Positions 265-41,083 of a DNA stretch of 47,578 nt are shown here, one piece after another (within the stretch, counting starts at the first letter, position 1; each line of letters starts with the position of its first letter). Location of the stretch: contig DMTS01000015.1 of the NCBI GenBank assembly GCA_003477045.1, positions 2,837 through 50,414 of the forward strand, written 5' to 3'. The stretch is from Candidatus Delongbacteria bacterium. Its GTDB lineage: Bacteria > UBA4055. The notes beneath the pieces are model-generated. The model was not told where the DNA came from and did not search any database. It was given only the letters and a program-made list of their open reading frames with translations. Position numbers and translations under genes: made by a program.

Positions 265-300
265 AACCGGACTGGAAATTACTGTCCGGTTTGATTATTT
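265..300 (+). terminator. Rho-independent terminator after the partial cargo gene
   Basis: Stem AACCGGAC (265-272) pairs with GTCCGGTT (284-291) around an 11-nt loop, followed by a T-rich tract. Confidence 0.6.
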
Positions 301-362
301 TCTCGGAAATCAAAAAATTTATCTGTATATTAAACTTAAGGAATGAACGCACGGAGAAAGAA

Positions 363-3263
363 ATGAAACGAATGCTGATAGTAATATTTTTTACAACCGT
401 AAATATATTGTTTTCCACAATCTATTATGTAACACAGAACGGAGGCGGAAATTTTGACGGTTCTGCCTGGGAAAATTCTTACCCGGGGGATTCGTTGCAA
501 GTAGCAATTGACAGCACACATAGAGGCGACGAGGTCTGGGTCGCAAAAGGAATATACAAACCTAATTCATGGCCTCATTCACTTTCTCCCGGTCCTGAAA
601 GAGAAATGTACTTTGCCATATACACAGATTTGTATGGCGGATTCAGTGGTTCTGAAATTGATATTTCACAAAGAGATTTAAAAAACAATGAAACTATATT
701 ATCTGGTGATATAGGTTTTGTAGGTGATAATTCTGACAATTGCTATCATATAATGACAAACGGTCGATACGGCTCAAATGTTACAGTAATAATTGATGGA
801 GTGACTTTTACAGGCGGTAACGCTGAAGATACCTATGGAACCGGTTCTGCTTTTTACAACCATGATTCTGAATTGACCATAAGGAATTGTACTTTTCACA
901 ATAATCATTCAATTTTTTTAGGTGGAGCTTTAGGAAATAGATATAATTATGATTATAATACTTATATGATCGTAGAAAACTGCTTATTTTATAACAATTC
1001 TTCAAGATATGGTGGAGCGATTTTCAGTAACGGAGAATCAACAATCATTACAAATTGTACTATTGTAAATAACACAGCCTATGATGACGGTGGAGGAATT
1101 TATCTTGCGACCGAAGAATACGAATGGGAAGTTCAATTTGGTGTTAATGAAGTTTCTAACAATATTATTTGGGGAAATAATTGCGATACACAAATTTATC
1201 AATATGATACAGGTTATATAAAATTTTATTTTAATGCTATACAGGATGGTTACAGTGGTTTTGGTAATTATTTTTTATCATCAAATAATGAAGGAGATAC
1301 CAATTCTCCTTATTTCACTGATACGGATAAGAATGACTGGACACTACAATCAACATCTCCGTGCATTGACTTCGGTGTATATTGGAATGCTCCTGAAACA
1401 GATATAAATTTAGCCCCGAGGCCTCAGGGTCTAATATATGATATTGGAGCTTATGAGTTTAAAAATACAGAACCAAATGCTACATTGCCATCAGTTTCAA
1501 CATTACCTGCTGAGAACATATCTGCTACATATGCAACTTTAAAAGGAGATGTAACGGATGAAGGTAATGCTCAGGTCATTGCAAAAGGAATAAAATACAG
1601 CACTAGTAACGGATTCGATCCTGAGACAGAAGGTAAACTCGTAAGGCTATTAGAGCTTATAGATGCAGGGGCGTTTGAGTTGTTTGTTACTAATTTATCT
1701 CCAAATACAATATACTACTACAGAGCATATTGTGAAAATAAATTTGGATATTCTTATGCAGATAATGAGCTTTCTTTTACGACTTCAGATTCTATAGTAA
1801 TAAACCCTGATGCAAACGGAATAGTATATATCAAAGAAGAAGGTACCGGAGATGGGTCATCCTGGAGCAATGCTTTAAATGGTTATGAATTACAGAACGG
1901 TATTGATCATCCTGATGCGACTGAAATATGGGTTGCAAAAGGTATTTATGTACCGAATGGCTGGCCTTTAGTAGATGTTTATCATGGAACTACCGAAAGA
2001 GAGAAGCACTTTAGAATAAGACCGAATAAAAAATTGTATGGCGGTTACAACGGTATTGAAACATCAATTGATCAAAGGGATATAAAAGAAAACGAAACCA
2101 TTCTATCAGGAGATATTGGAGTGAAAGGATATTCGGAAGATAACTGCTATCATGTAATCTATAATGGTGGCACATTAATAGACAATTCTGCTGTAATTGA
2201 CGGATTTACTATAACGGATGGCAATGCAGACGGTACATTAAGGTACAGCACGCTTTTGGGCGGTGGTATTTACAACCGGGCATGTTCACCCAGAATATCC
2301 AAATGCCTTATTAAGAATAATTATGCAATAGTAGGTGGTGGAGTTGCAGTTGGTTCAGACCCTGCTTATCCAATAATTGAAAATTGCACAGTTACAGGAA
2401 ACATTGCAGAATTATATGGAGGTGGTATTGAAAACGAAGGAGCATACCCCACAATTCAAAACTGCTTGATATCAAATAATACAGCCGGTAAAGAAGGAGG
2501 CGGCATTTACCATTGGGCGGAGTATATTACTTTTGGCGATTCAGACACACTCAAAATTTTTAATTCTACAATCGTAAAAAATATTGCCCCTATAGGAAGT
2601 GGGATTCAAATAAAAAGCGATTGTATGACAGGATTCAATCGTGAAATTATACAAAATAGTGTAATTTGGGGAGATTCTTCCGCATTCACATTTGAGTATG
2701 AAGCTCTATATGGCTCGATACAAACGATTTCATATTGCGGAATAACAGGCGGATACTCCGGTGAAGGAAATATTGACCTCTCTTCCGACAACTCAGGCGA
2801 TCCGAACTCGCCCTATTTCTCGGACCCTGAAAGCGGCAACTGGATGATTCAGGAATATTCACCGCTTCGGGACGCGGGAGTTTGGACTTCCAATGTGCCT
2901 TTATCTGATCTTGCCGGTTTTTCAAGAGACGCTATTCCAGATATAGGTTGTTATGAATACGATCCGACTTCAATTGAAGACACAGAATCGGTTCTGCCGC
3001 GCACTACCGAACTTTATCAGAATTATCCGAATCCTTTCAATCCGGCTACGAACATCAAGTTTGCTTTGAGCAAATCAGGTAAAGTTGAGTTGTCTGTTTT
3101 TAACATAGCTGGTCAGCTTGTGCGAAAAATTATTGATAAAGAAATGGCAGCTGGTTACCACAATGTAAAGTTCGAAGCGGATGATCTAAATTCCGGATTG
3201 TATTTCTACAAGCTCATAGCTGGCGGAAAAGAGCTTACAAAAAAGATGCTCATGGTAAAATAA
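363..3263 (+). CDS. Secreted right-handed beta-helix (Pmp-like GGAI/FxxN repeat) protein with internal duplication, an FN3-like insert and a T9SS CTD
   Basis: ORF 291-3263. I prefer ATG 363, which follows GGAG at 354-357 and starts a signal peptide (MKRMLIVIFFTTVNILFS); the TTG at 291 sits inside the upstream terminator. Repeats such as NNSSRYGGAIFSNG, DDGGGIYL, LYGGGIENEG and KEGGGIYHW are present. The C-terminus YQNYPNPFNPATNIKF...GLYFYKL (3015-3260) is a T9SS CTD. Confidence 0.8.
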   Translation: MKRMLIVIFFTTVNILFSTIYYVTQNGGGNFDGSAWENSYPGDSLQVAIDSTHRGDEVWVAKGIYKPNSWPHSLSPGPEREMYFAIYTDLYGGFSGSEIDISQRDLKNNETILSGDIGFVGDNSDNCYHIMTNGRYGSNVTVIIDGVTFTGGNAEDTYGTGSAFYNHDSELTIRNCTFHNNHSIFLGGALGNRYNYDYNTYMIVENCLFYNNSSRYGGAIFSNGESTIITNCTIVNNTAYDDGGGIYLATEEYEWEVQFGVNEVSNNIIWGNNCDTQIYQYDTGYIKFYFNAIQDGYSGFGNYFLSSNNEGDTNSPYFTDTDKNDWTLQSTSPCIDFGVYWNAPETDINLAPRPQGLIYDIGAYEFKNTEPNATLPSVSTLPAENISATYATLKGDVTDEGNAQVIAKGIKYSTSNGFDPETEGKLVRLLELIDAGAFELFVTNLSPNTIYYYRAYCENKFGYSYADNELSFTTSDSIVINPDANGIVYIKEEGTGDGSSWSNALNGYELQNGIDHPDATEIWVAKGIYVPNGWPLVDVYHGTTEREKHFRIRPNKKLYGGYNGIETSIDQRDIKENETILSGDIGVKGYSEDNCYHVIYNGGTLIDNSAVIDGFTITDGNADGTLRYSTLLGGGIYNRACSPRISKCLIKNNYAIVGGGVAVGSDPAYPIIENCTVTGNIAELYGGGIENEGAYPTIQNCLISNNTAGKEGGGIYHWAEYITFGDSDTLKIFNSTIVKNIAPIGSGIQIKSDCMTGFNREIIQNSVIWGDSSAFTFEYEALYGSIQTISYCGITGGYSGEGNIDLSSDNSGDPNSPYFSDPESGNWMIQEYSPLRDAGVWTSNVPLSDLAGFSRDAIPDIGCYEYDPTSIEDTESVLPRTTELYQNYPNPFNPATNIKFALSKSGKVELSVFNIAGQLVRKIIDKEMAAGYHNVKFEADDLNSGLYFYKLIAGGKELTKKMLMVK

Positions 3264-3300: not shown

Positions 3301-5826
3301 ATGAGAAAATTTCTTTTTTCATATTTTCTTTTGGTTTGCTTTTTTCTCTCCGCAGAAATGGCCGATCACGCTATCTACCCGAGCGGGGATCCATTGACAT
3401 CAGGGGGCTGGAAGGAACCTTCACCGGAACAGATGAAAATGATTGATTCCCTAAAAGTTTTTAAACCTGACAAATTTATTGTTAAAGACACTCTTCCAGA
3501 CAGCGTTGACAATTCGATAAGCGTTTATTTCAGACCAGTTTTTTCACAGTATGCGAATGAATGTGCTCAGGCAGCCGGTGTCGGTTACACTTTCACCTAT
3601 GAATTGAACAGGATGCGCGGTACAAACGCAAATTTCAATAAGAACCAATTCCCGCATTATTTTACATACAATTTCCTGAACAGCGGGAGCGAAGGTGAAG
3701 GATCAAATTATTTTGACGGCTGGGAGATCCTTAAACGGGAAGGCTGCCCTTACAATCAGGACTATGGGGGAATGGTGCCGACAGACGACCCTGATCTGAG
3801 AGAAATTCTCTGGATGACCGGGTACGATAAATACGAAAGGGCCATGGAGAACAGAGTATGCGAAGTGATCGCATTACCATGCGGAACTCCCGAAGGCCTT
3901 GATGACCTTAAAAGATGGCTTTTCGACCACGGTAACGGTTCAATTTACGGAGGCGTGGCAGTTTTTTCAGCCGGTGTCTTGTACACATGGCAGACAGATA
4001 CTCTTCATCAGAACACACCACATTCCGGAGAATCAGTTATTACTAAATGGCATACAACAGTCAATCACGCCATGACAATAGCTGGCTATAATGATTCTAT
4101 CCGCTATGACTATAACGGTGACGGAAGATTTACCAATGATCTTGATATCAACGGAGACTTGGTTGTTGATATGAAAGACTGGGAGATCGGAGCACTTCTA
4201 ATGGTCAACTCATGGGGTTACACATGGGGCGATAACGGCAGAAGCTGGGTAATGTATAATACGCTTGGATATAAGCACTGGGAAGGCGGTATCTGGACTC
4301 AGACTGCTCACGCAATCAACACTTTTGATTACTATACTCCCCTGCTAAAACTACGCGCTGAAATTGATTATCCCGACAGGAACAATCTTAAGATATACGC
4401 AGGTGTTTCTAGTGATTCCGGTTCTTTCAAACCCGATAAAATAATGGATTGCCTGATGCTTGATCACGCCGGCGGCAATTATCCTATGTCCGGTGATTCG
4501 TCTTATATTGACATAGGTCTTGATATTACTTCCCTTATTGCAGATATTGAAAACAATTCCGTAGCTGAAATATTTCTTTGTGTTGCTGAAAGAGATAGTT
4601 TTTTCACTTCAGTAGGAAAAATAATTTCGATGTCAGTTACTGATGAATGGGGCAATACTGTATCCTGTGCTGAAACTAATCTACAAATAGCAGATAATGA
4701 TACGACTTATTTGAGTGTAGTTCTTCCGGTATATTATAACACTCCTCTGATCACTGTAAGTGCATTACCGGAAATTATACCTGAGGAACCTTATTTTTTT
4801 CAAATGATATCAAGAGGCGGTCGGGATCCGTATAATTGGAATTTTATAATTGATTATACAGAAAATGAAAATACAAATGATTTCCCTTCGGGAGAATTCA
4901 CTGCTGCTGTTCTGCCCCATAACAACCCCGATAACGATATAATACCCGTCGAACTTGAATTCCGGTTCCCTTTTTTTGGAAACTTTTATGATTCTGTTTT
5001 TGTTTCTACAGACGGTTATATTTGTTTTGAAAATAAATATTACTACATTCAGGATGAGTTAAGCTTGATTGAAAATAAAGTGATAGCTCCTCATGCGGCA
5101 GAACTTACCTGCTATCCTACCAACGGAGACGGAATCTATTTTCTCTCGGCTATAAATTTCTTCACGGTTATATGGGATTCCGCTACAAGAACTGACAGCT
5201 TCGCAAATATAAAATTTGCTTGCAGAATTTACTCTGACGGAAAGATCGAATTCTTTCATGCCGACTATATTACTGAAGGCGCTGATTGGTATAGCGGAAT
5301 ATCAAACGGAGATTCTAAAAATTATATCATTTCCGGTATCAGCGGAATTTATGATCCGTCAGGAAAGAATATTACCCTTAATGCTCCTGATTTCCCTAAT
5401 GGTTTAGCTATAAATGGCTCCGGAGTTCTGTCAGGAACGATCCATGAATACGATAAATCATGGATTCTTAAAATCAGGATCACAGACTGGAATGGAATAT
5501 CATCTGAAAAAGAGATCGGCATCTCATCCTCTACTGCTATGGAAGAAGAAACCGTTTCCGATAAAGATTTTTTTATGAACTTTCCCAACCCGTTTAATTC
5601 CGTTACAGAAATCAGGTTCAGCTTGAACCAAAGCGGAAATTTTTCTCTGATTATCTTTAATTCAAGCGGGCAGATAGCTTGCAAGATATTTGATAACAGT
5701 TTTTTAAAAAAAGGAACCCACACTTTAGTTTGGCGACCCGAAAATTATTCTTCAGGTATTTATTACTCAATACTGACGGACGGATCTGGAAGTTCATTCT
5801 GCTGCAAAATGCTTCTTTTAAAATAA
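3301..5826 (+). CDS. Paralog P1: secreted multidomain papain-fold (C1-like) cysteine peptidase with a NIDO-like module and a T9SS CTD
   Basis: Signal peptide MRKFLFSYFLLVCFFLSA. Catalytic-type motifs are Q-x4-C (FSQYANECAQAAG, Cys codon 3562), VNHAMTIAGYNDS (His codon 4066) and MVNSWGYTWG (Asn codon 4207). The C-terminus NFPNPFNSVTEIRFSL...GIYYSIL (5569-5823) is a T9SS CTD. Confidence 0.75.
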   Translation: MRKFLFSYFLLVCFFLSAEMADHAIYPSGDPLTSGGWKEPSPEQMKMIDSLKVFKPDKFIVKDTLPDSVDNSISVYFRPVFSQYANECAQAAGVGYTFTYELNRMRGTNANFNKNQFPHYFTYNFLNSGSEGEGSNYFDGWEILKREGCPYNQDYGGMVPTDDPDLREILWMTGYDKYERAMENRVCEVIALPCGTPEGLDDLKRWLFDHGNGSIYGGVAVFSAGVLYTWQTDTLHQNTPHSGESVITKWHTTVNHAMTIAGYNDSIRYDYNGDGRFTNDLDINGDLVVDMKDWEIGALLMVNSWGYTWGDNGRSWVMYNTLGYKHWEGGIWTQTAHAINTFDYYTPLLKLRAEIDYPDRNNLKIYAGVSSDSGSFKPDKIMDCLMLDHAGGNYPMSGDSSYIDIGLDITSLIADIENNSVAEIFLCVAERDSFFTSVGKIISMSVTDEWGNTVSCAETNLQIADNDTTYLSVVLPVYYNTPLITVSALPEIIPEEPYFFQMISRGGRDPYNWNFIIDYTENENTNDFPSGEFTAAVLPHNNPDNDIIPVELEFRFPFFGNFYDSVFVSTDGYICFENKYYYIQDELSLIENKVIAPHAAELTCYPTNGDGIYFLSAINFFTVIWDSATRTDSFANIKFACRIYSDGKIEFFHADYITEGADWYSGISNGDSKNYIISGISGIYDPSGKNITLNAPDFPNGLAINGSGVLSGTIHEYDKSWILKIRITDWNGISSEKEIGISSSTAMEEETVSDKDFFMNFPNPFNSVTEIRFSLNQSGNFSLIIFNSSGQIACKIFDNSFLKKGTHTLVWRPENYSSGIYYSILTDGSGSSFCCKMLLLK

Positions 5827-5892
5827 TTTTTATTTCTATTTACAATTTTATCCGCTTTTGTTACTATTTAGTAAAATATTTTGGAGAAAAAA

Positions 5893-8343
5893 ATGAAAAT
5901 ATCTGTATTAGCAGCCTTAATAATTGTAAACTCCTTTCTGTTCGGTGAGCTCTATAACGCAAACCCCGATCCTTACGGAGATCCATGGATCGTGGGCGGA
6001 GTTTCCGAACCGACACCCGAGCAGATGGCCAGATTCAATGCAATTCCTAAACTTGTCTTACCGGATACTTACAAAGACAGAAAGGACCCTCTCCCGTCAT
6101 CAATTGACAACTCCCTGCTGCCCTATTTCAGACCGGTTTTCACCCAAAAGAACGGAAGCTGCGGACAGGCAAGCGGAGTAGGCTATAATTTTACTTATGA
6201 AATAAATCTTGAAAGAGGAACTGCAGCAAATGTACTTGTAAATCAGTTTCCTACTCATCATACCTATAATTTTCTGAACGACGGGTATGACAACGGATCG
6301 TGGTACTTTGACGGATGGGAAATCATCAAAGCCAACGGCGTACCGGATTGCGATACTTATGGCGGCATGTATCCGCTCGTTAATACTGCCGTGACATGGA
6401 TGAACGGCTACGAGGGCTGGGATATCGGTATGAATAATCGCGTTAAAGAGCTCATCAATATTCAGGTCGGCACTCCCGAAGGTCTTCTAACTCTAAAACA
6501 ATGGTTTATAGACCATGCAGACGGTTCCACAAACGGAGGTGTAGTCAATTTTGCTGCGGGAGTTTCCGGCGAGTACTGGACAGGAACGCTTCCTGCAGGC
6601 ACCCCCAACGCAGGTCAATATGTTATAAAGATGTGGGGCTCTGTAATGAATCATGCGATGACATTTACGGGTTACGATGATTCTATCAGGGTAGATTACA
6701 ATAACGACGGCCGGTACACCAATGATCTCGATATCACCGGTGATGAAATTGTTGATATGAAAGACTGGGAGATCGGCGGACTCAGAATGGTTAATTCATG
6801 GGGAACAACATGGGGCAATTCCGGAAAAGCGTGGGTAATGTACCGTACGCTGGCATTAGATATATCAGAAGGCGGTATCTGGAATAATGTCGTTAGCTCA
6901 ATCAGAGTTAAAGAATCGTTTACTCCGACATTAAAACTCAAAGCTGTAGTGAATCATAACGAAAGAACTGATGTAAAGATCTTTGCAGGTGTAGCTTCAG
7001 ATACATCTGCAACTTTTCCTGAACACATACTCCCATTCCCGCTATTCGTTTATCAGGGAGGATATTATGGAATGGTAGGCGATACGAACGAAATTGAATT
7101 CGGACTGGATATTACACCTCTTCTCGCTTATGTAAATCCGGATGAGCCTGTAAAATATTTTATATGTTTAAATGAAGTTGACCCCTATAATTACGGCGAA
7201 GGTGAGATAATTTCATTCTCTGTAATTGATGCTGATTCAAATGAGACCGTTTCTGCCCAGTCCCCCGTTTACATTGAAAATAATGCAACAACATATATGT
7301 CGCTGATAAAATCTTCAAGTTTTAATCCGCCTGAGATTGTAACTGGTTCGTTGCCTACAGCTACTCAAAACGAATTATATTCTTACGATCTGACTGCTCA
7401 GAACGGTTCTGCTCCTTATGCTTGGAGAATCAAATACGATTATGCTCAAATTGATAATATTTCAAATTTTCAGGAAGAGGCGGACAGTCTGCTGATCACT
7501 AATGATGATGATGACGGTTTCGGTATAATTGATCTTGACTTCGAGTTCCCGTTCTACGGAAAACTTTATGATCAGATTACTATCTCAACAAACGGTTCAA
7601 TACTTTTCGGCGGCGTTTTTGAATTTATTACTACAGAAGTAAATATTATGTCGGCAAGAAATATTACACCCTACGCAGCTGATCTGGCAAGCGTTTCTTC
7701 TTACGGTGAAGGTATTTTCTTTTATAAAAATACCGAATATATCGAAGTAAGATGGATAACATCCACTTATTTAGATACTGAAGCAAGTATTGATTTCGCT
7801 GCAAAATTGTATTCATCTGGAAATATCGAATTCTTTTACGGAGAAAATTTGTCAACTGAAATCATCTGGGCTTCAGGAATTTCTGACGGAAATGAAAATA
7901 ATTGTCTTATGTCCTGTTTGTCAAATACAAATGATCCTTCAGGTTTGAAAACAAAATTTATCGTTTCGGACTTTCCGTATGGAATGGGACTGAGCGAATC
8001 CGGTGTTTTCGGCGGAACTTTAACCTGCACTCCAAATACATGGAATATTATGTTCAGTGTTACAGATCTCAATAACATATCTTCGCTGAAGGTACTTCCT
8101 TTCTCACTGATTGCGCCGATGGGTATTCCCGGAAATATCAGCGTCGCCGCTTCTGTTTCATCGGCTATACTTACATGGGACGCTGTTTCGGGTGCTACTG
8201 TCTATAACATTTACAGATCAAATCTTCCTTATGGAACTTATACTAAGTTAGGAACTTCTCCCACACCGCCTTATGAAGACACAGAAATATCCGGTTCAAA
8301 TAAGTATTTCTATTACATAACTGCGGATAATCTTAAAAAATAA
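5893..8343 (+). CDS. Paralog P2: secreted multidomain papain-fold (C1-like) cysteine peptidase with a NIDO-like module and a terminal FN3-like domain (no T9SS CTD)
   Basis: ORF 5881-8343. I prefer ATG 5893 after GGAG (5883-5886), giving the signal peptide MKISVLAALIIVNSFLFG. Motifs are FTQKNGSCGQASG (Cys codon 6160), MNHAMTFTGYDDS and MVNSWGTTWG. The C-terminal 76 aa (8113-8340), ILTWDAVSGATVYNIYRS...KYFYYITADN, look FN3-like. Confidence 0.75.
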   Translation: MKISVLAALIIVNSFLFGELYNANPDPYGDPWIVGGVSEPTPEQMARFNAIPKLVLPDTYKDRKDPLPSSIDNSLLPYFRPVFTQKNGSCGQASGVGYNFTYEINLERGTAANVLVNQFPTHHTYNFLNDGYDNGSWYFDGWEIIKANGVPDCDTYGGMYPLVNTAVTWMNGYEGWDIGMNNRVKELINIQVGTPEGLLTLKQWFIDHADGSTNGGVVNFAAGVSGEYWTGTLPAGTPNAGQYVIKMWGSVMNHAMTFTGYDDSIRVDYNNDGRYTNDLDITGDEIVDMKDWEIGGLRMVNSWGTTWGNSGKAWVMYRTLALDISEGGIWNNVVSSIRVKESFTPTLKLKAVVNHNERTDVKIFAGVASDTSATFPEHILPFPLFVYQGGYYGMVGDTNEIEFGLDITPLLAYVNPDEPVKYFICLNEVDPYNYGEGEIISFSVIDADSNETVSAQSPVYIENNATTYMSLIKSSSFNPPEIVTGSLPTATQNELYSYDLTAQNGSAPYAWRIKYDYAQIDNISNFQEEADSLLITNDDDDGFGIIDLDFEFPFYGKLYDQITISTNGSILFGGVFEFITTEVNIMSARNITPYAADLASVSSYGEGIFFYKNTEYIEVRWITSTYLDTEASIDFAAKLYSSGNIEFFYGENLSTEIIWASGISDGNENNCLMSCLSNTNDPSGLKTKFIVSDFPYGMGLSESGVFGGTLTCTPNTWNIMFSVTDLNNISSLKVLPFSLIAPMGIPGNISVAASVSSAILTWDAVSGATVYNIYRSNLPYGTYTKLGTSPTPPYEDTEISGSNKYFYYITADNLKK

Positions 8344-8364
8344 TTCTTGGTTAAACATCGAATT

Positions 8365-8404
8365 AAAGGAAATTGTTAACTTTACAATTTCCTTTTCTTT
8401 TATT
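8365..8404 (+). terminator. Rho-independent terminator after P2
   Basis: Perfect 12-bp stem AAAGGAAATTGT (8365-8376) / ACAATTTCCTTT (8384-8395) with a 7-nt loop, followed by TCTTTTATT. Confidence 0.75.
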
Positions 8405-8443
8405 ATATTCAGATAATTGAAAAAAATTAAAAGGATGTATTCC

Positions 8444-10912
8444 ATGAAAAAAATATCGATAATCTTAGTAGCTTTACTCGCACACCTTATGTTCGCTGAC
8501 CTGATAAATATGAACCCCGATCCGAACGGTGAGCCGTGGTGGGCCGGCGGATGGAAAAATCCGACTGCGGATGAACAGACACAAATTGATGCTTTACCGA
8601 AACTGACTTTACCCGATTCATATAAGAACAGTAAAGCAAAACTGGCTTACGCGCTTGACAACTCTGTTAACCAGTATTTCAGACCTATATTCAACCAGGT
8701 CGGCGGTAGCTGCGCTCAGGCAAGCGGAATTGCATATAATATGACTTATGAGATGAATTTCGTAAGAGGAACCACGGCAAATGTTACAGCCAATCAGCTT
8801 CCGAGCCATTTCACATACAACTATCTGAATGACGGTTCAGGTGCGAACGGTTCAACTTATTTTCAGGGTTGGGACATTGCAAAGAACTGCGGAGTCCCTG
8901 ATGTAGCAACCTACGGCGGATATTTGTGGCCAACGACGAACACAACTTATCAGAATCTTCTCTGGAAGGACGGGTTCCCGGTATATCAGACGGGAATGAA
9001 CAACCGTGTTTCTGAAGTGATCCAGATCCCTGTCGGTACACCTGAAGGGCTTGCAACTTTAAAACAGTATTTTAACGACCACTGCGACGGTTCATCGGCA
9101 GGAGGAATAGTTAACTTTTCCGCCGGAGTGAGCTATACATTCGCAACAAGCACATTACCTGCGGGAACTGAAAACGCCGGCCAGACCGTAGTTTTAAACT
9201 GGGACCCGATCGTTAATCATGCTATGACCTTCGCAGGTTACAATGACTCTATCAGATATGATTTCAACAGCGATGGAAGATACACGAATGATATTGATAT
9301 TAACGGAGACAGCGTTGTTGACATGAAAGACTGGGAAAAAGGCGCCGTACTGATGGTCAATTCGTGGGGTACTACATGGGGAACGCTTGGAAAAGCATGG
9401 GCACCTTACAGAACGCTTGCCTTATCTCTTGCTGACGGCGGGATCAACAACAACACTGTTTACACTATGAAAGTTAAGAACTCATTCGTACCGCAGCTGA
9501 AACTCAAAGCTACAGTTACTTACAGTGACAGAAAAGAGCTTAAGATCTATGCGGGTGTTTCAACTGATACAACAGCTTCAGTTCCTCAATATACCGTTTC
9601 ATTTCCGATATTTAACTATCAGGGCGGAACAAATATAAAAATGGTTGGCGATACTGACAGTACGATCGAGCTTGGGCTTGATATCAGTTCGCTACTGAGC
9701 TATGTAGACAGTGCTCAGCGTGTTAAATATTTTATCTGCGTCGAGCAGAAGGATGCCGGTGGGGCCGGAACAGGAAGAATCGTTTCTATGGCTGTTGTTG
9801 ATGAAAATGCAGTCACGAAAACGAGTTCACAATCGAATGTAACTATAGTTACGAACTCAACAACATATATGAGCGTAATTACCGGAACGAGCTTCAATCA
9901 GCCTTCTATAACAAATTCTTCGCTGCCTGACGCACAGTCTGGAATACCTTACAGCGAACAGCTTTCTGTAAGTAATGGAGCTTCCCCTTTTGTATGGGAT
10001 ACGCTTTATGACTATACAGAAACGGCAAATTCAAATTTATTTCCTACAGAAGCCGTAAATCCGCTGACTACGAACAGCGACGACGACGGGATCGCAAGAG
10101 TTGACCTTGACTTCGATTTTCCTTTCTACGGTAAACTTTACGATCATATAACAGTGTGCACCGACGGCTCAATTCTATTCGGGGATGAATTTGTTTATGT
10201 CAGAAATGAAGGCGATATTATAGCTACGAGAGCAATTACGGTTTATTCTCAGGATCTTCAGGCTTATCCTGTTGACGGAGACGGTATCTTTTATTATAAA
10301 AATGCCGATCATCTTACGGTAAGGTGGAAAACATCAATATGCGGCGTGCAGACTGCGAATCTTGAATTCGCGGTTAAAATTTATTCAAACTCGAACATTG
10401 AATTCTTTTATGGAACAGGTATGACGACAGGGCTCGTCTGGTCGGCAGGAGTTTCTAACGGAAGCTCTGCGGATTGTAAGATCTCTCAATATGCAAACAC
10501 AAGTAATCCTTCAGGATTAAAAACCGGATTTACTACAACCGACTACCCTTACGGCATGGAACTAAGCTCCGGTGGAATTTTCAGCGGCACTTTGAACGGG
10601 ACAGACGATACATGGAATATTAAATTCAGAGTGACCGACAGCAATAATATTTCAGACATCAAGATAATTCCATTTACTCTTATCTCTGCTCCCGGAACCC
10701 CCGCGATCACAAGCTTTAATGCTACTTCCTCTTCAGCGACGATCGTATGGGATGCGGTTATCGGAGCGTCTTCTTACAGAATTTACAGATCCGTTCAACC
10801 GTATTCGGGATTTGCTTTCCTTGATACTTCTTCTTCTACATCGTACACGGACAATAATATTTTATCTGGCAATAAATACTTCTACTATATAACTGCCGAC
10901 AATGCAAAATAA
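8444..10912 (+). CDS. Paralog P3: secreted multidomain papain-fold (C1-like) cysteine peptidase with a NIDO-like module and a terminal FN3-like domain (no T9SS CTD)
   Basis: ORF 8417-10912. I prefer ATG 8444 (AAGGA at 8431-8435), giving the signal peptide MKKISIILVALLAHLMFA. Motifs are FNQVGGSCAQASG (Cys codon 8711), VNHAMTFAGYNDS and MVNSWGTTWG. The C-terminal 74 aa (10688-10909), IVWDAVIGASSYRIYRS...KYFYYITADN, look FN3-like. Confidence 0.75.
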   Translation: MKKISIILVALLAHLMFADLINMNPDPNGEPWWAGGWKNPTADEQTQIDALPKLTLPDSYKNSKAKLAYALDNSVNQYFRPIFNQVGGSCAQASGIAYNMTYEMNFVRGTTANVTANQLPSHFTYNYLNDGSGANGSTYFQGWDIAKNCGVPDVATYGGYLWPTTNTTYQNLLWKDGFPVYQTGMNNRVSEVIQIPVGTPEGLATLKQYFNDHCDGSSAGGIVNFSAGVSYTFATSTLPAGTENAGQTVVLNWDPIVNHAMTFAGYNDSIRYDFNSDGRYTNDIDINGDSVVDMKDWEKGAVLMVNSWGTTWGTLGKAWAPYRTLALSLADGGINNNTVYTMKVKNSFVPQLKLKATVTYSDRKELKIYAGVSTDTTASVPQYTVSFPIFNYQGGTNIKMVGDTDSTIELGLDISSLLSYVDSAQRVKYFICVEQKDAGGAGTGRIVSMAVVDENAVTKTSSQSNVTIVTNSTTYMSVITGTSFNQPSITNSSLPDAQSGIPYSEQLSVSNGASPFVWDTLYDYTETANSNLFPTEAVNPLTTNSDDDGIARVDLDFDFPFYGKLYDHITVCTDGSILFGDEFVYVRNEGDIIATRAITVYSQDLQAYPVDGDGIFYYKNADHLTVRWKTSICGVQTANLEFAVKIYSNSNIEFFYGTGMTTGLVWSAGVSNGSSADCKISQYANTSNPSGLKTGFTTTDYPYGMELSSGGIFSGTLNGTDDTWNIKFRVTDSNNISDIKIIPFTLISAPGTPAITSFNATSSSATIVWDAVIGASSYRIYRSVQPYSGFAFLDTSSSTSYTDNNILSGNKYFYYITADNAK

Positions 10913-10922
10913 GGAGCTTAAC

Positions 10923-13445
10923 ATGAAGAAATCAATATTGCTGCTTTCGATCTCATTGTTTTTTATGGCTAATGCTGAACTTATAAATATGAACCCTGAT
11001 CCTAACGGTGAGCCATGGTGGGCAGGAGGCTGGAAAATGCCTGATGCAGAAGAAATGCAGCGGATCGAAGCCATTCCAAAGTTGACTCTGTCTAATAAAT
11101 ACAAAGGTAAAGAGATACCATATAAACTGGACAACTCAGTATTGCCCTATTTCAGACCGATATTCAACCAAATGGGCGGAAGCTGCGCGCAGGCAAGCGG
11201 GATCGGTTATAATTTCACTTATGAAATGAATTACATTAACGGAACAAGCGCAAATGTTACGGATAATCAGTACCCTACTCATTATACATACAATTTCCTT
11301 AACGGAGGCTCAGGTGATAACGGCTCAACTTACTTTGGAGGATGGGATATAATTAATGCAGGTGGAATTCCTAATGTAACGACCTACGGCGGATTATGGC
11401 CTTCTACCGATCCATTGACAATGAATAAAATTTGGATGGGCGGCTTTGATAATTACTTGTCCGGAATGGAGAAAAGGATCGTAGAAGTTCTGACGATCCC
11501 CGTAGGAACTCCAGAAGGACTTCAGACGCTAAAACAGTATTTTAACGATTATTGCGACGGGTCGCCGACAGGAGGTATCGTGAATTTTGCTGCCGGGGTA
11601 AGCTGGGTCGAGATCGATCCTCTTCCCGCAGGAACAGAAGAAGCCGGAAAATCTCTGCTCTGGAAATGGGATTCTGCAGTTAATCATGCGATGACTTTCG
11701 TAGGATATAACGACTCTATAAGATTTGATATGAACGGTGACGGCCGTTTTACTAATGACCTTGATATAACAGGGGACGGTGAAGTTAATATGAAAGACTG
11801 GGAGATCGGAGGTCTTTTAATGGCGAATTCGTGGGGATCTGGCTGGGTTGATTTCGGAAAGATCTGGGTCGCCTACAGAACTCTAGCTCTCGCTCTTGAG
11901 GAAGGCGGAATATGGATGAACGCAGTTCACACCATTAGAGTGAGAGATGATTTTTCTCCGAGCCTGTACATGAAATCCACAATAAATTTCAGCGACAGAG
12001 AAGAATTGAAAATTTATGCGGGTGTATCGTCTGATACGACAGCAACGGTCCCCGAATATTATGTGCAGTTCCCTCACTTTAACTATCAGGGCGGAGCTTT
12101 CGGAATGAACGGCATAGATAATATACTTGAGCTCGGTATAGATATAAGCCCGCTCTTAACTTATATAAACCCGAATGAAAAAGCTAAATTTTTCATTTGT
12201 GTAGAACACAAAGAGAAAGATACTGCAGGAAGAGGAAGCATTACTTCGTTTTCTATACTTGACAAAACTCTGAACGAGTATGTCAGCCCCCAGACGGCTG
12301 TAGCCATAACAAAAAACTCAACCACTTACCTTTCTGTTATCGCTTCGGTTGATTTTGACGCGCCTGTTATAGACGACATCGTTATTCCGGTTTCTGATCC
12401 CGGAATTCCATATTCATACGCGCTGTCAGCATCAGGAGGAATGCCTCCATACAAATGGGATGTTATCTGCGAATACTCGGAAGTTGAAAACACCGGAGAT
12501 TTCTACCTTAACACTGAAACATCTCTTGAAATGACAAATGACGACGACGGATACGCAGTTATCGAACTTCCGTTCCAGTTCCCGTTCTACGGAAAATTAT
12601 ATGACAAAGTTACTGTAATCACTGACGGATCAATAAAACTTGAAGACGGCTTTGATTATATAAGAACGGAAGGTGATATTCTGGCTTTTAAGACCATAAC
12701 TGCATACGGCGCTGATCTGATGGCGTACCCTGCGGACGGAGATGGCGTATATTATGCAGTGAATGACAGCTGTCTGACAGTCAGATGGATAACTTCACTG
12801 TACGATGTTCAGGAAGTGGATCTTGATTTCGAGACCAGAATTTATTCCGACTCAAGAATAGAATTTTTCTACGGAGATTCATTAACGACCGGGATAGCTT
12901 GGGCTTCGGGAATTTCAAACGGGAAAGTAACAGACGCGGTTATTTCTTCGATTTCAAACATCTCTAATGCTTCAGGGATGAAAACGGCATTCTCTACCGT
13001 TCCTTACCCTTACGGTTTAGAACTAAGCACCGACGGGATTTTCAGCGGAACAACTTTTGAAGCCGACAAGTCATGGAATATTTTATTTCGCATTACGGAC
13101 GACCAAAATATTTCTAACTTGAAGCAGCTTACTTTTTCGACAGCTGCCGGGATAGAGAACGCTGAATTCACAGCGAATGATTTCGTTCTTGAACAAAATT
13201 ATCCGAACCCTTTCAACCCTTCAACAAAGATCAGATTCGATCTGAAAATCTCTCAGCAGGTTTCTCTGACAATATATAACACTACCGGTGAGATCGTAGA
13301 AACGCTGATCGATAAAAAAATGCTTCATCAGGGCGATCATTCATTTGAATGGAAAGCCGATAAACTTTCATCTGGGGTTTATTATTTCGGTCTAAGATCT
13401 GAGAATGGAATAAAACAGATAAGAAAAATGACGGTTTTAAAATAA
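10923..13445 (+). CDS. Paralog P4: secreted multidomain papain-fold (C1-like) cysteine peptidase with a NIDO-like module and a T9SS CTD
   Basis: ORF 10902-13445. I prefer ATG 10923, six nt after AAGGAG (10911-10916), giving the signal peptide MKKSILLLSISLFFMANA. Motifs are FNQMGGSCAQASG (Cys codon 11184), VNHAMTFVGYNDS and MANSWGSGW. The C-terminus QNYPNPFNPSTKIRFDL...GVYYFGL (13188-13442) is a T9SS CTD. Confidence 0.75.
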   Translation: MKKSILLLSISLFFMANAELINMNPDPNGEPWWAGGWKMPDAEEMQRIEAIPKLTLSNKYKGKEIPYKLDNSVLPYFRPIFNQMGGSCAQASGIGYNFTYEMNYINGTSANVTDNQYPTHYTYNFLNGGSGDNGSTYFGGWDIINAGGIPNVTTYGGLWPSTDPLTMNKIWMGGFDNYLSGMEKRIVEVLTIPVGTPEGLQTLKQYFNDYCDGSPTGGIVNFAAGVSWVEIDPLPAGTEEAGKSLLWKWDSAVNHAMTFVGYNDSIRFDMNGDGRFTNDLDITGDGEVNMKDWEIGGLLMANSWGSGWVDFGKIWVAYRTLALALEEGGIWMNAVHTIRVRDDFSPSLYMKSTINFSDREELKIYAGVSSDTTATVPEYYVQFPHFNYQGGAFGMNGIDNILELGIDISPLLTYINPNEKAKFFICVEHKEKDTAGRGSITSFSILDKTLNEYVSPQTAVAITKNSTTYLSVIASVDFDAPVIDDIVIPVSDPGIPYSYALSASGGMPPYKWDVICEYSEVENTGDFYLNTETSLEMTNDDDGYAVIELPFQFPFYGKLYDKVTVITDGSIKLEDGFDYIRTEGDILAFKTITAYGADLMAYPADGDGVYYAVNDSCLTVRWITSLYDVQEVDLDFETRIYSDSRIEFFYGDSLTTGIAWASGISNGKVTDAVISSISNISNASGMKTAFSTVPYPYGLELSTDGIFSGTTFEADKSWNILFRITDDQNISNLKQLTFSTAAGIENAEFTANDFVLEQNYPNPFNPSTKIRFDLKISQQVSLTIYNTTGEIVETLIDKKMLHQGDHSFEWKADKLSSGVYYFGLRSENGIKQIRKMTVLK

Positions 13446-13474
13446 ATATATTTTTTAAATAATTCATTTGCCGA

Positions 13475-13508
13475 CCGGAAATATTTAGTTTATATTTCCG
13501 GCCTGTTT
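13475..13508 (+). terminator. Hairpin terminator after P4
   Basis: Perfect 10-bp stem CCGGAAATAT (13475-13484) / ATATTTCCGG (13492-13501) with a 7-nt loop. The following T tract (CCTGTTT) is weak. Confidence 0.55.
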
Positions 13509-13541
13509 AAAAAGAAGCATGCCCGGAGGAGGTGATCGGCA

Positions 13542-13745
13542 GTGATACACATAAAAGTTAGAGACGGCGAACATTTTGAAAAAGCCCTTAAAAGATTTAC
13601 AAAAACTTTTGAGAAAAGCGGAGTTTTAGCTGAACTCAGATTAAGAGAAAGATACGAAAAACCGACTTGGGTTAACAGAAGAGAAAGAATTCAGGCTACA
13701 AGAAAGCAGCAGAAGATCCAGAGAATGCAGAACAGAGGATTTTAA
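13542..13745 (+). CDS. rpsU: 30S ribosomal protein S21
   Basis: The 67-aa basic protein [38 protein letters not shown]... matches the S21 pattern. It has a GTG start nine nt after GGAGGAGG (13525-13532). Confidence 0.9.
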
Positions 13746-13769
13746 TTATAAACTCCTATAAGAGAATAA

Positions 13770-13797: not shown

Positions 13798-13831
13798 TTA
13801 TATTCCATTGAAATTTTTCGGGAGATAATAT

Positions 13832-37728: not shown

Positions 37729-37764
37729 CATCAAAAGTTAGGATTCTGTGTAAGGAAACCGGTT

Positions 37765-40900: not shown

Positions 40901-41083
40901 ATGGAAAGAAGCAAACCGGATTTCAAAATTTTTATACCTTTGGGTATTGTTTTCATCGGAGCCGGAGTAGTTTTTCTAAGAAATTCTTCCGGTACCGGTA
41001 TAGCTCTTATCGCAGTCGGTCTTTCATGGGTAGCTATCGGCTATGCTAAGTCTAAAAAACGGAAAGATGGGGAGAAGAAATGA
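40901..41083 (+). CDS. Small two-helix membrane protein
   Basis: MERSKPDFKIFIPLGIVFIGAGVVFL...GIALIAVGLSWVAIGYAKSKKRK has two hydrophobic helices. Its stop overlaps the next start (ATGA at 41080-41083). Confidence 0.55.
   Translation: MERSKPDFKIFIPLGIVFIGAGVVFLRNSSGTGIALIAVGLSWVAIGYAKSKKRKDGEKK

What the first reader, a model, noticed from the sequence alone, without database searches (positions are those of the whole stretch)
5569..13508. Mirror-image arrangement of T9SS-CTD-tailed and FN3-tailed paralogs
The four paralogs differ mainly in their last ~75-85 residues. P1 (5569-5823) and P4 (13188-13442) end in a canonical T9SS CTD. P2 (8113-8340) and P3 (10688-10909) lack it and end in an FN3-like module (W-D-A-V-x-G-A-x-x-Y-x-I-Y-R-S ... 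K-Y-F-Y-Y-I-T-A-D-N) only 2-3 residues from the stop. The order along the DNA is CTD, FN3 | FN3, CTD. Strong hairpin terminators are visible only after P2 (8365-8404) and P4 (13475-13508). P3 and P4 are separated by just 10 nt, so each apparent transcription unit pairs one CTD-bearing copy with one CTD-less copy. One hypothesis is that the two kinds form hetero-complexes, with the CTD-less partner co-exported or retained by the T9SS-anchored one. Another is that the FN3 tail acts as an alternative surface-retention signal.
Basis: partly seen in the sequence, partly recalled or inferred. Interest (0 to 1): 0.7.

Follow-up and report, generated by a model that had tools for sequence, protein, structure and literature searches.

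The report
Protease paralogs with swappable C-terminal tails
Four neighbouring copies of a secreted cysteine-protease gene, probably from an uncultured Delongbacteria genome, end either in the standard type IX secretion tag or in a shortened fibronectin-type domain that also caps many other secreted proteins in related sequences and may be an undescribed sorting tag; the mirror-like gene order is incidental.

Summary
The four paralogs are real. P1 and P4 end in a T9SS type A CTD. P2 and P3 end in an FN3 module that stops 2-3 residues after strand F, so it has no G strand.

- The cores are only 43-57% identical, so the copies do not differ mainly in their tails.
- Only the hairpin after P2 looks like a terminator.
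- The CTD-FN3-FN3-CTD order has a 1-in-3 chance expectation, and syntenic relatives read FFFC, FFC, CFC and FC.

The core is a very divergent papain-like cysteine peptidase under purifying selection. On a bootstrapped core tree the tail type is polyphyletic, which implies at least three CTD/FN3 swaps.

The same truncated FN3 sits at the extreme C-terminus of at least ten other signal-peptide protein families. These include C25 (one in this window, 41080-42606), PPAD-type deiminase, S8 subtilase and GLUG, whose relatives elsewhere carry CTDs. No Pfam or NCBIfam sorting model matches it.

Best reading: a portable alternative C-terminal localisation module. This function is inferred, not shown.

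The parts
291..3263 (+). Upstream neighbour: beta-helix / choice-of-anchor Q protein with a T9SS type A CTD. It lies 37 nt before P1 with no hairpin between them.
   Evidence: Pfam Beta_helix and Por_Secre_tail at 44.4 bits; NCBIfam choice_anch_Q. The spacer does not fold.
3301..5826 (+). P1: papain-like cysteine peptidase paralog with a signal peptide. It belongs to the most divergent clade, which groups (70% bootstrap) with the Bacteroidota/Cloacimonadota homologs on the unrooted core tree.
   Evidence: Alignment A1. The P1-like clade has 100% bootstrap and groups with the outgroups at 70%. Core dN/dS is 0.08.
5569..5823 (+). P1 tail: T9SS type A C-terminal sorting domain.
   Evidence: PF18962 at 30.3 bits on the tail alone. 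A local CTD HMM gives E=2e-32.
5893..8343 (+). P2: papain-like peptidase paralog with a signal peptide (MKISVL...). Catalytic Gln85, Cys90 (6160-6162), His254 (6652-6654) and Asn301 (6793-6795).
   Evidence: AF2 pLDDT 89.4. Foldseek matches cathepsins L/S/K, xylellain and Cwp84 at probability 1.0. These residues are invariant or nearly so across 66 homologs.
8113..8340 (+). P2 tail: FN3 module that ends at strand F (six strands, no G strand), 3 residues before the stop.
   Evidence: It is not homologous to the CTD (hhalign probability 0.5%).
8365..8404 (+). Intrinsic-terminator-like hairpin (12-bp stem) plus T-run after P2.
   Evidence: z=-3.2. Conserved in L081 and L082.
8444..10912 (+). P3: papain-like peptidase paralog. 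The start is probably ATG 8444, judged from its orthologs. Its core is the sister group of the P4-like clade.
   Evidence: The P3+P4 clade has 96% bootstrap. Core dN/dS is 0.05-0.07.
10688..10909 (+). P3 tail: FN3 module that ends at strand F, 2 residues before the stop.
   Evidence: Pfam fn3 E=0.009, below the cut-off. Tail profile against 3MPC gives E=2e-12. Local tail HMM gives E=2e-33.
10911..10916 (+). AAGGAG ribosome-binding site for P4. It overlaps the P3 stop codon, and the stop and the ATG are 10 nt apart.
   Evidence: Read directly from the sequence.
10923..13445 (+). P4: papain-like peptidase paralog. In every syntenic locus it is the last gene before rpsU.
   Evidence: The P4-like clade has 100% bootstrap.
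13188..13442 (+). P4 tail: T9SS type A C-terminal sorting domain.
   Evidence: PF18962 at 39.9 bits. TIGR04183 at 28.9 bits against a cut-off of 23.
13470..13506 (+). Weak hairpin after P4. It has no U-run and does not look like a terminator.
   Evidence: z=-1.0; 32 of 200 shuffles fold at least as well.
13543..13735 (+). rpsU (ribosomal protein S21). It follows the array in all syntenic loci, and the strong terminator at 13768-13795 comes only after it.
   Evidence: Sequence. PF01165 is recorded for the orthologous genes. The terminator has z=-3.9.
41080..42606 (+). Unrelated Peptidase_C25-family protein with a signal peptide. Its last ~70 residues (about 42382-42603) are the same kind of F-strand-terminated FN3 (...KKFYSVTAVF*).
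   Evidence: The tail HMM hits residues 443-514 of the 516-codon open frame from 41056 at E=4.9e-9. Pfam Peptidase_C25 scores 39.1 bits against a cut-off of 23. Orthologs P0131-P0138 end the same way, while more distant homologs end in a CTD.

Best explanation
**Shown**
- The region is a tandem array of four old, divergent paralogs of a Sec-exported, papain-like (clan CA, C1-like) cysteine peptidase. Across Bacteroidota, Cloacimonadota and relatives this family normally ends in a T9SS type A CTD.
- All four copies keep the catalytic Gln/Cys/His/Asn and are under purifying selection.
- Two copies keep the CTD. The other two carry a non-homologous module in the same position: an FN3 domain that stops right after strand F.
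- The tail behaves as a portable cassette. On the core tree the tail type is polyphyletic, which implies at least three CTD/FN3 exchanges.
- The same truncated FN3 caps at least ten other signal-peptide families. These include C25 gingipain-like, PPAD-type deiminase, S8 subtilase, GLUG, PMP beta-helix, CARDB and LTD-metallo-beta-lactamase proteins. Some of their relatives or tandem paralogs carry a CTD there instead.

**Inferred**
- The truncated FN3 is an alternative C-terminal localisation or retention module. After duplication, paralogs were therefore assigned to different envelope destinations: CTD copies to T9SS export and surface attachment, FN3-tailed copies to another fate.
- The most likely mechanism is recognition of a C-terminal beta-sandwich with an open edge. 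This could be either a third kind of T9SS-type tail or an anchor completed by a strand from an envelope partner.
- The CTD-FN3-FN3-CTD order and the apparent pairs are by-products of duplication and tail exchange. They are not a functional design.
For: **Architecture and fold:**. The weak sequence-profile hits to solved structures (E 0.3-3.3) are all to papain-family enzymes and align the HAxTxVGY and NSWGxxWG motifs.

**Catalytic residues:** conserved across 66 homologs.

**Selection:** dN/dS is 0.05-0.09 in cores and 0.06-0.41 in tails.

**Tail identity**
- FN3 by profile (3MPC, E=2e-12) and by fold.
- Six strands in both AF2 models.
- The match to 3MPC ends at residue 77 of 103.
- No homology to the CTD.

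**Ancestral CTD:** every complete-tailed homolog in the Bacteroidota/Cloacimonadota loci L003-L080 in which a tail could be identified carries a CTD; none has this FN3.

**Tail swaps (200 bootstraps)**
- P3-like (FN3) plus P4-like (CTD) form a clade at 96%.
- CTD-bearing L084_g1 is nested in the P2-like FN3 clade at 100%.
- CTD-bearing L089_g3 groups with the stand-alone FN3 clade at 100%.

**Portability**
- The window's C25 protein and its orthologs carry the tail, whereas more distant homologs carry a CTD.
- A metagenome scan found 33 distinct tails ending 10 or fewer residues (mostly 2-5) after the strand-F Ala. They sit on PAD_porph, C25, S8, GLUG, PMP, DUF5123, CARDB, LTD-MBL and Cleaved_Adhesin proteins. 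All ORFs that begin within their locus have a signal-peptide-like N-terminus.
- A GLUG tandem array in L133 has FN3, CTD, CTD tails on cores that are 40-44% identical.
- The P2 tail is 48% identical to the tail of a C25 protein.

**Gene order is not conserved:**
Against: - There is no experimental or transcript evidence for the localisation of any of these proteins.
- The metagenome scan was seeded with the tail's own KYFY[YH][IV][TK]A motif. It is therefore biased towards close relatives of this module, and the taxonomy of most of those contigs is unknown.
- A cassette copied together with its stop codon would look 'always C-terminal and truncated' even without a sorting role.
- Only about 0.3 Mb of Delongbacteria-like sequence was searched for tails across all ORFs, so the number of tailed proteins per genome is not known.
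- No partner that could supply the missing strand, and no dedicated secretion component, was identified.
- The presence of T9SS machinery in this organism is inferred only from its CTD-bearing proteins.
Confidence: 0.5

Rival explanations
1. Passive-domain reading. The FN3 tail has no targeting role. Having lost the CTD, the FN3-tailed peptidases stay in the periplasm by default, or are released non-specifically. There they act on imported oligopeptides, while the CTD copies work outside the cell. The truncated FN3 is a spacer or binding domain whose odd end was inherited with the cassette.
For: - No known secretion or sorting model matches the tail.
- FN3 is a very common accessory domain: 66,354 library proteins match the tail profile at E<=0.001.
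- Related C25 proteins in other phyla end in complete FN3 domains.
- A few tails carry 4-12 extra residues, so the exact end point is not rigid.
Against: - The truncated form is kept across at least ten families and at 40-50% tail identity.
- It occupies the CTD's position in families that are classical T9SS cargo. PPAD and gingipain are such cargo by established knowledge.
- It alternates with the CTD among tandem paralogs in two families.
- The tails are under purifying selection.
Confidence: 0.27
2. A CTD-less copy forms a hetero-complex with the neighbouring CTD-bearing paralog, and is co-exported or retained by it. For example, the partner might complete the open FN3 sandwich.
For: - The P3-like (FN3) to P4-like (CTD) adjacency is kept in all 9 syntenic loci that reach rpsU.
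- The two genes overlap by 4 nt (L084, L085) or are 10-34 nt apart (window; probably L081-L083, where the gene calls overlap; L087, L088).
- The P3 and P4 cores are sister clades.
- The FN3 lacks its last strand, as do subunits that are completed in trans.
Against: - Stand-alone FN3-tailed paralogs occur in L090, L091 and L092. L102 has an FN3-FN3 tandem and L107 has a deiminase-FN3 neighbour.
- In L089 a terminator and a 232-nt spacer lie between the pair.
- In L081 the array is FFFC.
- The same tail is found on many families with no CTD paralog nearby, including the window's own C25 gene.
- Synteny reflects one inherited arrangement, not independent events.
- No complex prediction could be run.
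Confidence: 0.1
3. Decay reading. P2 and P3 are degenerating copies that lost the CTD by truncation.
For: They lack the ancestral CTD, and the FN3 ends abruptly.
Against: - The catalytic residues are intact.
- Core dN/dS is 0.05-0.09 and tail dN/dS is below 0.5.
- Orthologs with the same ending are conserved down to about 45% identity.
- The FN3 is not a remnant of the CTD, and it is absent upstream of the CTD in CTD-bearing copies.
- A genuinely broken copy (L089, 192+624 aa) looks different.
Confidence: 0.02

Closest known systems
T9SS type A cargo proteins (signal peptide, functional domains, C-terminal Ig-like CTD; e.g. gingipains and PPAD of Porphyromonas gingivalis)
   Same: P1 and P4 fit this layout. 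For P2 and P3 the overall logic is the same: a Sec signal peptide, then hydrolase domains, then a small beta-sandwich at the very C-terminus. The truncated FN3 is also found on C25, PAD_porph, S8 and adhesin-type proteins, which are typical T9SS cargo classes.
   Different: The P2/P3 tail is an FN3, not a CTD (hhalign probability 0.5%). It lacks the PNPF and final K-x-x-L-K type motifs seen in the window's own CTDs. It has six strands rather than seven. Nothing shows that the T9SS recognises it.
Papain-family (C1A) cysteine peptidases: cathepsins L/S/K, xylellain, Cwp84
   Same: The fold matches (Foldseek probability 1.0, target TM up to about 0.7). The Gln...Cys, His (NHAMT) and Asn-Ser-Trp motifs are in the canonical order.
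   Different: No Pfam Peptidase_C1 hit. Sequence-profile matches to solved structures are only at E>=0.3. A ~30-residue Asp-rich (DxNxDG-type) insert lies between the catalytic His and Asn. About 480 further residues of beta-sandwich and NIDO-like domains follow the peptidase domain.
Bacterial FN3 modules of Clostridium thermocellum (PDB 3MPC; the FN3 of CtXyl5A, 5G56)
   Same: This is the closest solved relative of the tail: 34% identity, rmsd 1.6-2.1 A, profile E=2e-12.
   Different: Those domains are complete and internal. Here the chain ends where their F-G loop begins.
Incomplete Ig-like folds completed in trans (chaperone-usher pilins; Bacteroidota type V pilins)
   Same: An Ig-like sandwich that lacks its C-terminal strand, leaving an open edge. 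This is a resemblance from established knowledge only.
   Different: No donor strand, chaperone, usher or polymer is evident here. The module is an FN3 appended to enzymes, not a pilin.
'Choice-of-anchor' proteins (NCBIfam concept: one family carrying different C-terminal sorting signals)
   Same: One protein family, and even tandem paralogs, carries alternative C-terminal modules. The gene just upstream of P1 has a choice-of-anchor Q domain plus a CTD.
   Different: The alternative tail here is not one of the catalogued sorting signals; no NCBIfam model matches it.

Membership tests
T9SS type A CTD (PF18962 / TIGR04183): P1 and P4 | Match to the curated CTD model at or above its cut-off | tested here: met
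   P4 scores PF18962 34.1/27 and TIGR04183 28.9/23. P1 is borderline for the whole protein (25.9/27 and 21.9/23) but scores 30.3/27 on the tail alone.
T9SS type A CTD: P1 and P4 | The domain lies at the extreme C-terminus of a protein with an N-terminal Sec signal peptide | tested here: met
   The matches end 3-9 residues from the stop. The N-termini have a basic stretch followed by a hydrophobic stretch.
T9SS type A CTD: P1 and P4 | T9SS machinery in the same genome, with CTD-dependent export and cleavage | not testable with these tools
   Only 47.6 kb of the genome is available, and no T9SS component lies in the window.
T9SS CTD (type A or B): P2 and P3 | Sequence or profile similarity to a CTD | tested here: not met
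   No PF18962, PF13585 or TIGR04183 hit at E<=10. hhalign of the tail profile against the local CTD profile gives probability 0.5%.
Fibronectin type III domain: P2 and P3 tails | Sequence membership | tested here: inconclusive
   Pfam fn3 is below its cut-off: P3 scores 16.7/25, P2 has no hit, and 9 of 26 tails hit at E<=1. A profile of the 26 tails does hit solved FN3 domains at E=2e-12 and 7e-11.
Fibronectin type III domain: P2 and P3 tails | FN3 fold | tested here: met
   The tail-only AF2 model (pLDDT 87.9) matches only FN3 domains. The best match is 3MPC, with TM 0.77 and rmsd 1.6 A.
Fibronectin type III domain: P2 and P3 tails | Complete seven-strand sandwich (A, B, C, C', E, F, G) | tested here: not met
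   Both models show six strands. The chain stops 2-3 residues after ...YFYYITADN. The alignment to 3MPC ends at residue 77 of 103.
Papain-like cysteine peptidase (clan CA, family C1-like): cores of P1-P4 | Papain fold | tested here: met
   Foldseek matches cathepsins L/S/K/X, xylellain and Cwp84 at probability 1.0, E down to 4e-7 and target TM 0.55-0.73.
Papain-like cysteine peptidase: cores of P1-P4 | Catalytic Gln, Cys, His and Asn present in the canonical order | tested here: met
   Q85, C90 and H254 are invariant, and N301-S-W is at least 90% conserved, in 66 homologs. All are present in all four window copies. The His and Asn motifs align to ervatamin, xylellain and dionain. Residue-level structural superposition was not available.
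Papain-like cysteine peptidase: cores of P1-P4 | Match to the curated Peptidase_C1 model | tested here: not met
   No Pfam or NCBIfam family hits the core at E<=10.
C-terminal protein-sorting domain (generic criteria): truncated FN3 | Always at the extreme C-terminus, on many otherwise unrelated proteins that have signal peptides | tested here: met
   33 distinct tails end 10 or fewer residues after strand F, on at least ten Pfam-distinct families. All ORFs that begin within their locus have a signal-peptide-like N-terminus. Caveat: the scan was seeded with the tail's own motif.
C-terminal protein-sorting domain (generic criteria): truncated FN3 | A cognate recognition or processing system, and dependence of localisation on the tail | not testable with these tools
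   No partner was identified, and the lineage has no cultured member that I know of.
   The sequence is compatible: there is no hairpin in the 66-nt P1-P2 spacer, the P3-P4 gap is 10 nt, and a terminator follows P2. But there is no terminator before P1 or after P4, so the units may run from the upstream gene through P2 and from P3 through rpsU. No transcript data were available.

The most novel reading that the evidence does not exclude
The F-strand-terminated FN3 is a previously undescribed class of C-terminal sorting or anchoring domain in Delongbacteria-like bacteria. It would be either a third, non-homologous kind of T9SS-type tail, or an anchor whose open beta-sandwich is completed by a strand from an envelope protein. 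It can be exchanged with the type A CTD. Tandem paralogs of proteases, deiminases and adhesins would then be routed to different destinations simply by swapping tails.
Probability: 0.35. Interest if true: 0.8.

Novelty: new variant of a known kind. Interest (0 to 1): 0.55.

Why it matters
C-terminal sorting domains such as the T9SS CTDs, LPXTG and PEP-CTERM were each first recognised by the pattern seen here: a small module fixed at the extreme C-terminus of many unrelated secreted proteins.

If the truncated FN3 is such a tag, three things follow.
- It would reveal an unknown export or anchoring route in a candidate phylum with no cultured member that I know of.
- It would give a rule for predicting which hydrolases of these organisms are surface-bound and which are not.
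- It would show localisation evolving by tail swapping between tandem paralogs.

Independently of that, the core defines a large family of papain-like peptidases that is not recognised by Pfam or NCBIfam. More than 1,000 homologs were scored, spread across Bacteroidota, Cloacimonadota and related lineages.

If the tail is only a passive domain, the locus is an ordinary paralog array.

Tried and rejected
**Searches that gave little**
- The exhaustive HMM search of the tail profile against 1.84 billion representatives was uninformative. The best 150 are giant multi-FN3 repeat proteins.
- The word-indexed search with the tail profile returned only short fragments and one complete FN3.
- P0126, a 105-aa ORF with the tail, proved to be an isolated short ORF, probably a gene remnant, beside a restriction-modification/Abi island, so it says nothing about the tail's carriers.
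- Four literature searches failed or timed out. The two that ran ('Delongbacteria', 'choice-of-anchor') found nothing relevant. 'Not described' therefore rests on Pfam and NCBIfam only.

**Ideas tested and dropped**
- A suspected link between tail-bearing genes and FGE-sulfatase genes did not hold. The proteins with an N-terminal FN3 in L118, L121 and L126-L129 (and L123, over the FN3 part) are one further family that ends ...FSVRCV(R/K)D. From memory this looks like the Fibrobacter succinogenes paralogous domain. They are not recurrent neighbours.
- Descent of the FN3 tail from the CTD, suggested by the MAFFT alignment of IY(R/N)S and YFYY with CTD motifs, was rejected by hhalign.
- The decay or pseudogene reading was rejected by dN/dS and by the conserved catalytic residues.

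**Limits**
- Rooting the core tree on all non-Delongbacteria loci failed, because L003 (labelled Bacteroidia) falls inside the P4-like clade. Only unrooted splits are used.


Full report
**1. What is in the sequence**

Positions 3301-13445 hold four head-to-tail + strand genes of 816-841 codons.
- P1: 3301-5826.
- P2: 5893-8343 (the open frame starts at TTG 5881).
- P3: about 8444-10912 (frame from TTG 8417; orthologs begin MKKISIIL).
- P4: 10923-13445 (frame from 10902; AAGGAG lies 6 nt before ATG 10923).

Each begins with a basic-then-hydrophobic Sec-type signal peptide. None has a convincing lipoprotein cysteine (lipobox).

P1 and P4 end in the T9SS type A sorting domain. On the tails alone PF18962 scores 30.3 and 39.9 bits against a cut-off of 27. 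For whole proteins P4 passes PF18962 and TIGR04183, while P1 falls just short (25.9/27 and 21.9/23).

P2 and P3 have no CTD match at any threshold. They end ...KYFYYITADNLKK* and ...KYFYYITADNAK*.

**2.

The paralogs do not 'differ mainly in their last 75-85 residues'. Core identities are 43% (P1 against the others), 51-54% (P2 against P3 and P4) and 57% (P3 against P4).

The hairpin after P2 (8365-8395 plus a T-run) is a good intrinsic-terminator candidate. Its z-score is -3.2, none of 200 shuffles is as stable, and it is conserved in L081 and L082.

The hairpin after P4 has no U-run and is no better than shuffles (z=-1.0). The next strong terminator comes only after rpsU, at 13768-13795 (z=-3.9).

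There is also no terminator between the upstream CTD-bearing beta-helix gene (291-3263) and P1. From sequence alone, the units could therefore be (upstream gene)-P1-P2 and P3-P4-rpsU.

**3. The core is a very divergent papain-like peptidase**

No Pfam or NCBIfam model matches the first ~740 residues, and the only sequence-profile matches to solved structures are non-significant (E>=0.3).

An AlphaFold2 model of P2, built on 66 homologs, has pLDDT 89.4. Its N-terminal domain matches cathepsins L/S/K/X, xylellain and Cwp84 at Foldseek probability 1.0.

Gln85, Cys90 and His254 are invariant, and Asn301-Ser-Trp is at least 90% conserved, in the 66-sequence alignment. All are present in all four window copies.

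With the larger profile, the only weak hits to solved structures are papain-family enzymes. They align at HAxTxVGY and NSWGxxWGxxG.

A ~30-residue Asp-rich insert (DYNxDGRxTNDxDIxGDxxVDMKDWE) lies between the catalytic His and Asn.

The family is large. More than 1,000 homologs were scored among the 8,000 candidates examined. Source names include Bacteroidota, Cloacimonadota, Chlorobi and Candidatus Delongbacteria. The closest named relatives of the window's genes are Delongbacteria MAGs.

**4. The P2/P3 tail is a true FN3 that lacks strand G**

- A profile of 26 such tails hits the C. thermocellum Fn3-like protein 3MPC (E=2e-12) and the FN3 of CtXyl5A (E=7e-11). The alignment ends at residue 77 of the 103-residue chain.
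- The tail-only model has pLDDT 87.9 and matches only FN3 domains. Against 3MPC it gives TM 0.77 and rmsd 1.6 A, with 74 of 96 target residues aligned.
- Both models show six strands, and the chain stops just after strand F.
- The tail is not a diverged CTD: hhalign probability is 0.5%.
- Every FN3-tailed homolog recovered ends the same way...(K/R)YFYY(I/V)TA(D)N plus 0-4 residues. A few have 6-12 extra residues, but none restores a canonical G strand.

**5. The mirror order is incidental**

With two C (CTD) and two F (FN3) genes, two of the six possible orders are palindromic.

Arrays at the same chromosomal site, upstream of rpsU-cvpA-clpC, read as follows:

| Locus | Order |
|---|---|
| Window, L082 | CFFC |
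| L089 | C-F(broken)-F-C |
| L081 | FFFC |
| L083 | FFC |
| L084/L085, L087 | CFC |
| L088 | FC |

L086 reads CF and shares only the upstream flank (SIS_2, Toluene_X).

The only constant is an FN3-tailed P3-like gene immediately followed by a CTD gene before rpsU. The two genes overlap by 4 nt in L084/L085. The gap is 10 nt in the window and probably the same in L081-L083, where the gene calls overlap because they start at the upstream in-frame ATG. It is 31 nt in L088 and 34 nt in L087. In L089 they are separated by 232 nt that contain a GC-rich hairpin plus a U-run.

Elsewhere, FN3-tailed paralogs stand alone. L090, L091 and L092 have no paralog within 10 kb on any side where contig was available. 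L102 has an FN3-FN3 tandem, and in L107 an FN3-tailed copy follows an FN3-tailed deiminase.

**6. Tail type has been swapped**

In the Bacteroidota/Cloacimonadota loci L003-L080, every complete family member in which a tail could be identified carries a CTD, and none carries this FN3. The CTD is therefore ancestral.

I built a neighbour-joining tree of the core only (708 columns, 38 genes, 200 bootstraps).
- P3-like (FN3) and P4-like (CTD) clades are each at 100% and join each other at 96%.
- The P2-like FN3 clade (100%) contains one CTD-bearing gene (L084_g1 = P0007), which is 72% identical to P2 over the aligned 90%.
- The stand-alone FN3 clade joins the CTD-bearing L089_g3 at 100%.

At least three exchanges are needed to explain this.

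Within the window, tail identities (P2/P3 51%, P1/P4 38%) track core identities. The swaps are therefore old, not recent gene conversion between neighbours.

All four genes are under purifying selection: core dN/dS is 0.05-0.09 and tail dN/dS is 0.06-0.41. Synonymous sites are partly saturated, so these values are approximate.

**7. The unexpected part: the truncated FN3 is a portable C-terminal module**

*In the window.* An HMM of the tail hits an unrelated gene in the same window. It is 41080-42606, a signal-peptide Peptidase_C25-family protein (39.1 bits against a cut-off of 23) that ends ...KKFYSVTAVF*. Its Delongbacteria orthologs all end in the truncated FN3. More distant homologs end in a T9SS CTD, in another C-terminal domain, or (two named Aminicenantes) in a complete FN3 with a G strand.

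*In metagenomes.* A scan seeded with KYFY[YH][IV][TK]A gave 44 loci. Among distinct tails, the number of residues after the strand-F Ala was as follows:

| Residues after strand-F Ala | Distinct tails | Interpretation |
|---|---|---|
| 10 or fewer (mostly 2-5) | 33 | Truncated FN3 at the C-terminus |
| 16-22 | 7 | Most are complete FN3 domains with a recognisable G strand |
| 200 or more | 7 | Mostly N-terminal FN3 domains of another family |

*Carriers of the truncated form*:
- PAD_porph deiminases
- gingipain-type C25 with its propeptide
- an S8 subtilase
- GLUG proteins
- a Chlam_PMP beta-helix protein
- DUF5123
- CARDB
- LTD plus metallo-beta-lactamase
- a Cleaved_Adhesin-like fragment (weak Pfam hit)
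- multi-FN3 proteins
- several proteins with no Pfam match

Every such ORF that begins within its locus has a signal-peptide-like N-terminus.

*Further support.*
- The P2 tail is 48% identical to the tail of one C25 protein, which is as close as it is to P3's tail.
- In L133 three tandem GLUG paralogs, with cores 40-44% identical, carry FN3, CTD and CTD tails. This is a second family with a mixed-tail array.
- No NCBIfam or Pfam sorting-domain model matches the tail.

**8. Interpretation**

The descriptive layer is well supported. It comprises a paralog array, the ancestral CTD, a non-homologous FN3 replacement, repeated swaps and a non-conserved gene order.

The functional layer is inference. 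A module that satisfies all of the following has the signature by which sorting domains have been recognised before:
- it is fixed at the extreme C-terminus;
- it is shared by many unrelated signal-peptide proteins;
- it is interchangeable with a known sorting domain;
- it keeps a peculiar open-edged shape.

I therefore favour the view that the truncated FN3 is an alternative localisation or retention tag that gives paralogs different envelope fates. My confidence in this layer is about 0.45. The mechanism is open: recognition as a third kind of T9SS-type tail, or completion of the open sandwich by a partner strand.

The main rival is that the tail is a passive domain and the CTD-less enzymes simply remain periplasmic. 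The pairing or piggy-back model keeps a small probability, because of the conserved P3-P4 adjacency and the missing strand.

**9. Caveats**

- The metagenome scan is biased by its seed motif, and most of those contigs carry no taxonomy.
- Trees are neighbour-joining only.
- Model coordinates could not be inspected.
- Four literature searches failed or timed out, and the two that ran found nothing relevant. 'Undescribed' therefore rests on the domain libraries.
- There are no expression or localisation data.

Noticed in passing
window 41080-42606 (+): A Peptidase_C25-family protein with a signal peptide ends in the same F-strand-terminated FN3 (...KKFYSVTAVF*). Its Delongbacteria orthologs do the same, while more distant homologs end in a T9SS CTD or in a complete FN3.
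   Followed up: yes
window 6688-6771 (P2 residues ~266-293); same position in P1, P3 and P4: A conserved Asp-rich insert (DYNxDGRxTNDxDIxGDxxVDMKDWE) lies between the catalytic His and Asn of the papain-like domain. It resembles two EF-hand/dockerin-type Ca2+-binding loops. Xylellain lacks it in the aligned stretch.
   Followed up: partly
window ~7525-7870 (P2 residues ~545-660): A domain beginning FEFPFYGKLYDxITISTNGSI resembles the NIDO (nidogen-like) domain. It sits between the weak Ig-like (He_PIG-type) hits near the C-terminal end of the core. Pfam NIDO does hit the equivalent region of C25 and S8 proteins that carry the same FN3 tail (L113, L116), so larger C-terminal cassettes may be shared between families.
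   Followed up: partly
window 5950-6000 and equivalents (P2 residues ~20-36): A motif immediately after the predicted signal peptide, (E)LINxNPDPNGEPW, is nearly invariant across the whole family, whichever tail is present. Its role is unknown; it could be a pro-segment or a processing site.
   Followed up: no
window 13446-13831: rpsU (13543-13735) follows the array in every syntenic locus. No convincing terminator separates it from P4, and the strong terminator is at 13768-13795. A ribosomal protein gene may therefore be co-transcribed with secreted protease genes.
   Followed up: partly
L133 2765-7034: Three tandem GLUG-motif paralogs carry FN3, CTD and CTD tails on cores that are 40-44% identical. 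This is an independent example of a mixed-tail paralog array.
   Followed up: yes
L089 7367-9871: The second gene of this array is split into 192-aa and 624-aa pieces. It is a broken FN3-tailed copy, and it shows what real decay looks like at this locus.
   Followed up: partly
L003 (contig CAZYNH010000003.1, labelled 'uncultured Bacteroidia'): Its family member falls inside the Delongbacteria P4-like clade (100% bootstrap). This suggests mis-binning, mislabelling or horizontal transfer.
   Followed up: no
L081 ~17260-17500 against window ~10670-10909: The P3 tail shows much lower synonymous divergence from its L081 ortholog (dS 0.21) than the P3 core does (dS 0.68). Possible causes are constraint from the overlapping P4 translation start, or local gene conversion.
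   Followed up: no
L118, L121, L123, L126-L129: Another family has an FN3 of the same subtype, at the N-terminus in most members and mid-protein in L118. It is followed directly by a domain ending ...FSVRCV(R/K)D. From memory this looks like the Fibrobacter succinogenes major paralogous domain. In L126, two such genes lie immediately upstream of two genes with truncated FN3 tails.
   Followed up: partly
window 37346-37696 (+) and 37711-39105 (+): A small ORF looks like a PemK/MazF-type toxin by eye (...IWVADLSPQIGTEPGKTRPVVIV...). It is followed by a 464-aa ankyrin-repeat-like protein with a hydrophobic N-terminus. Neither was analysed.
   Followed up: no
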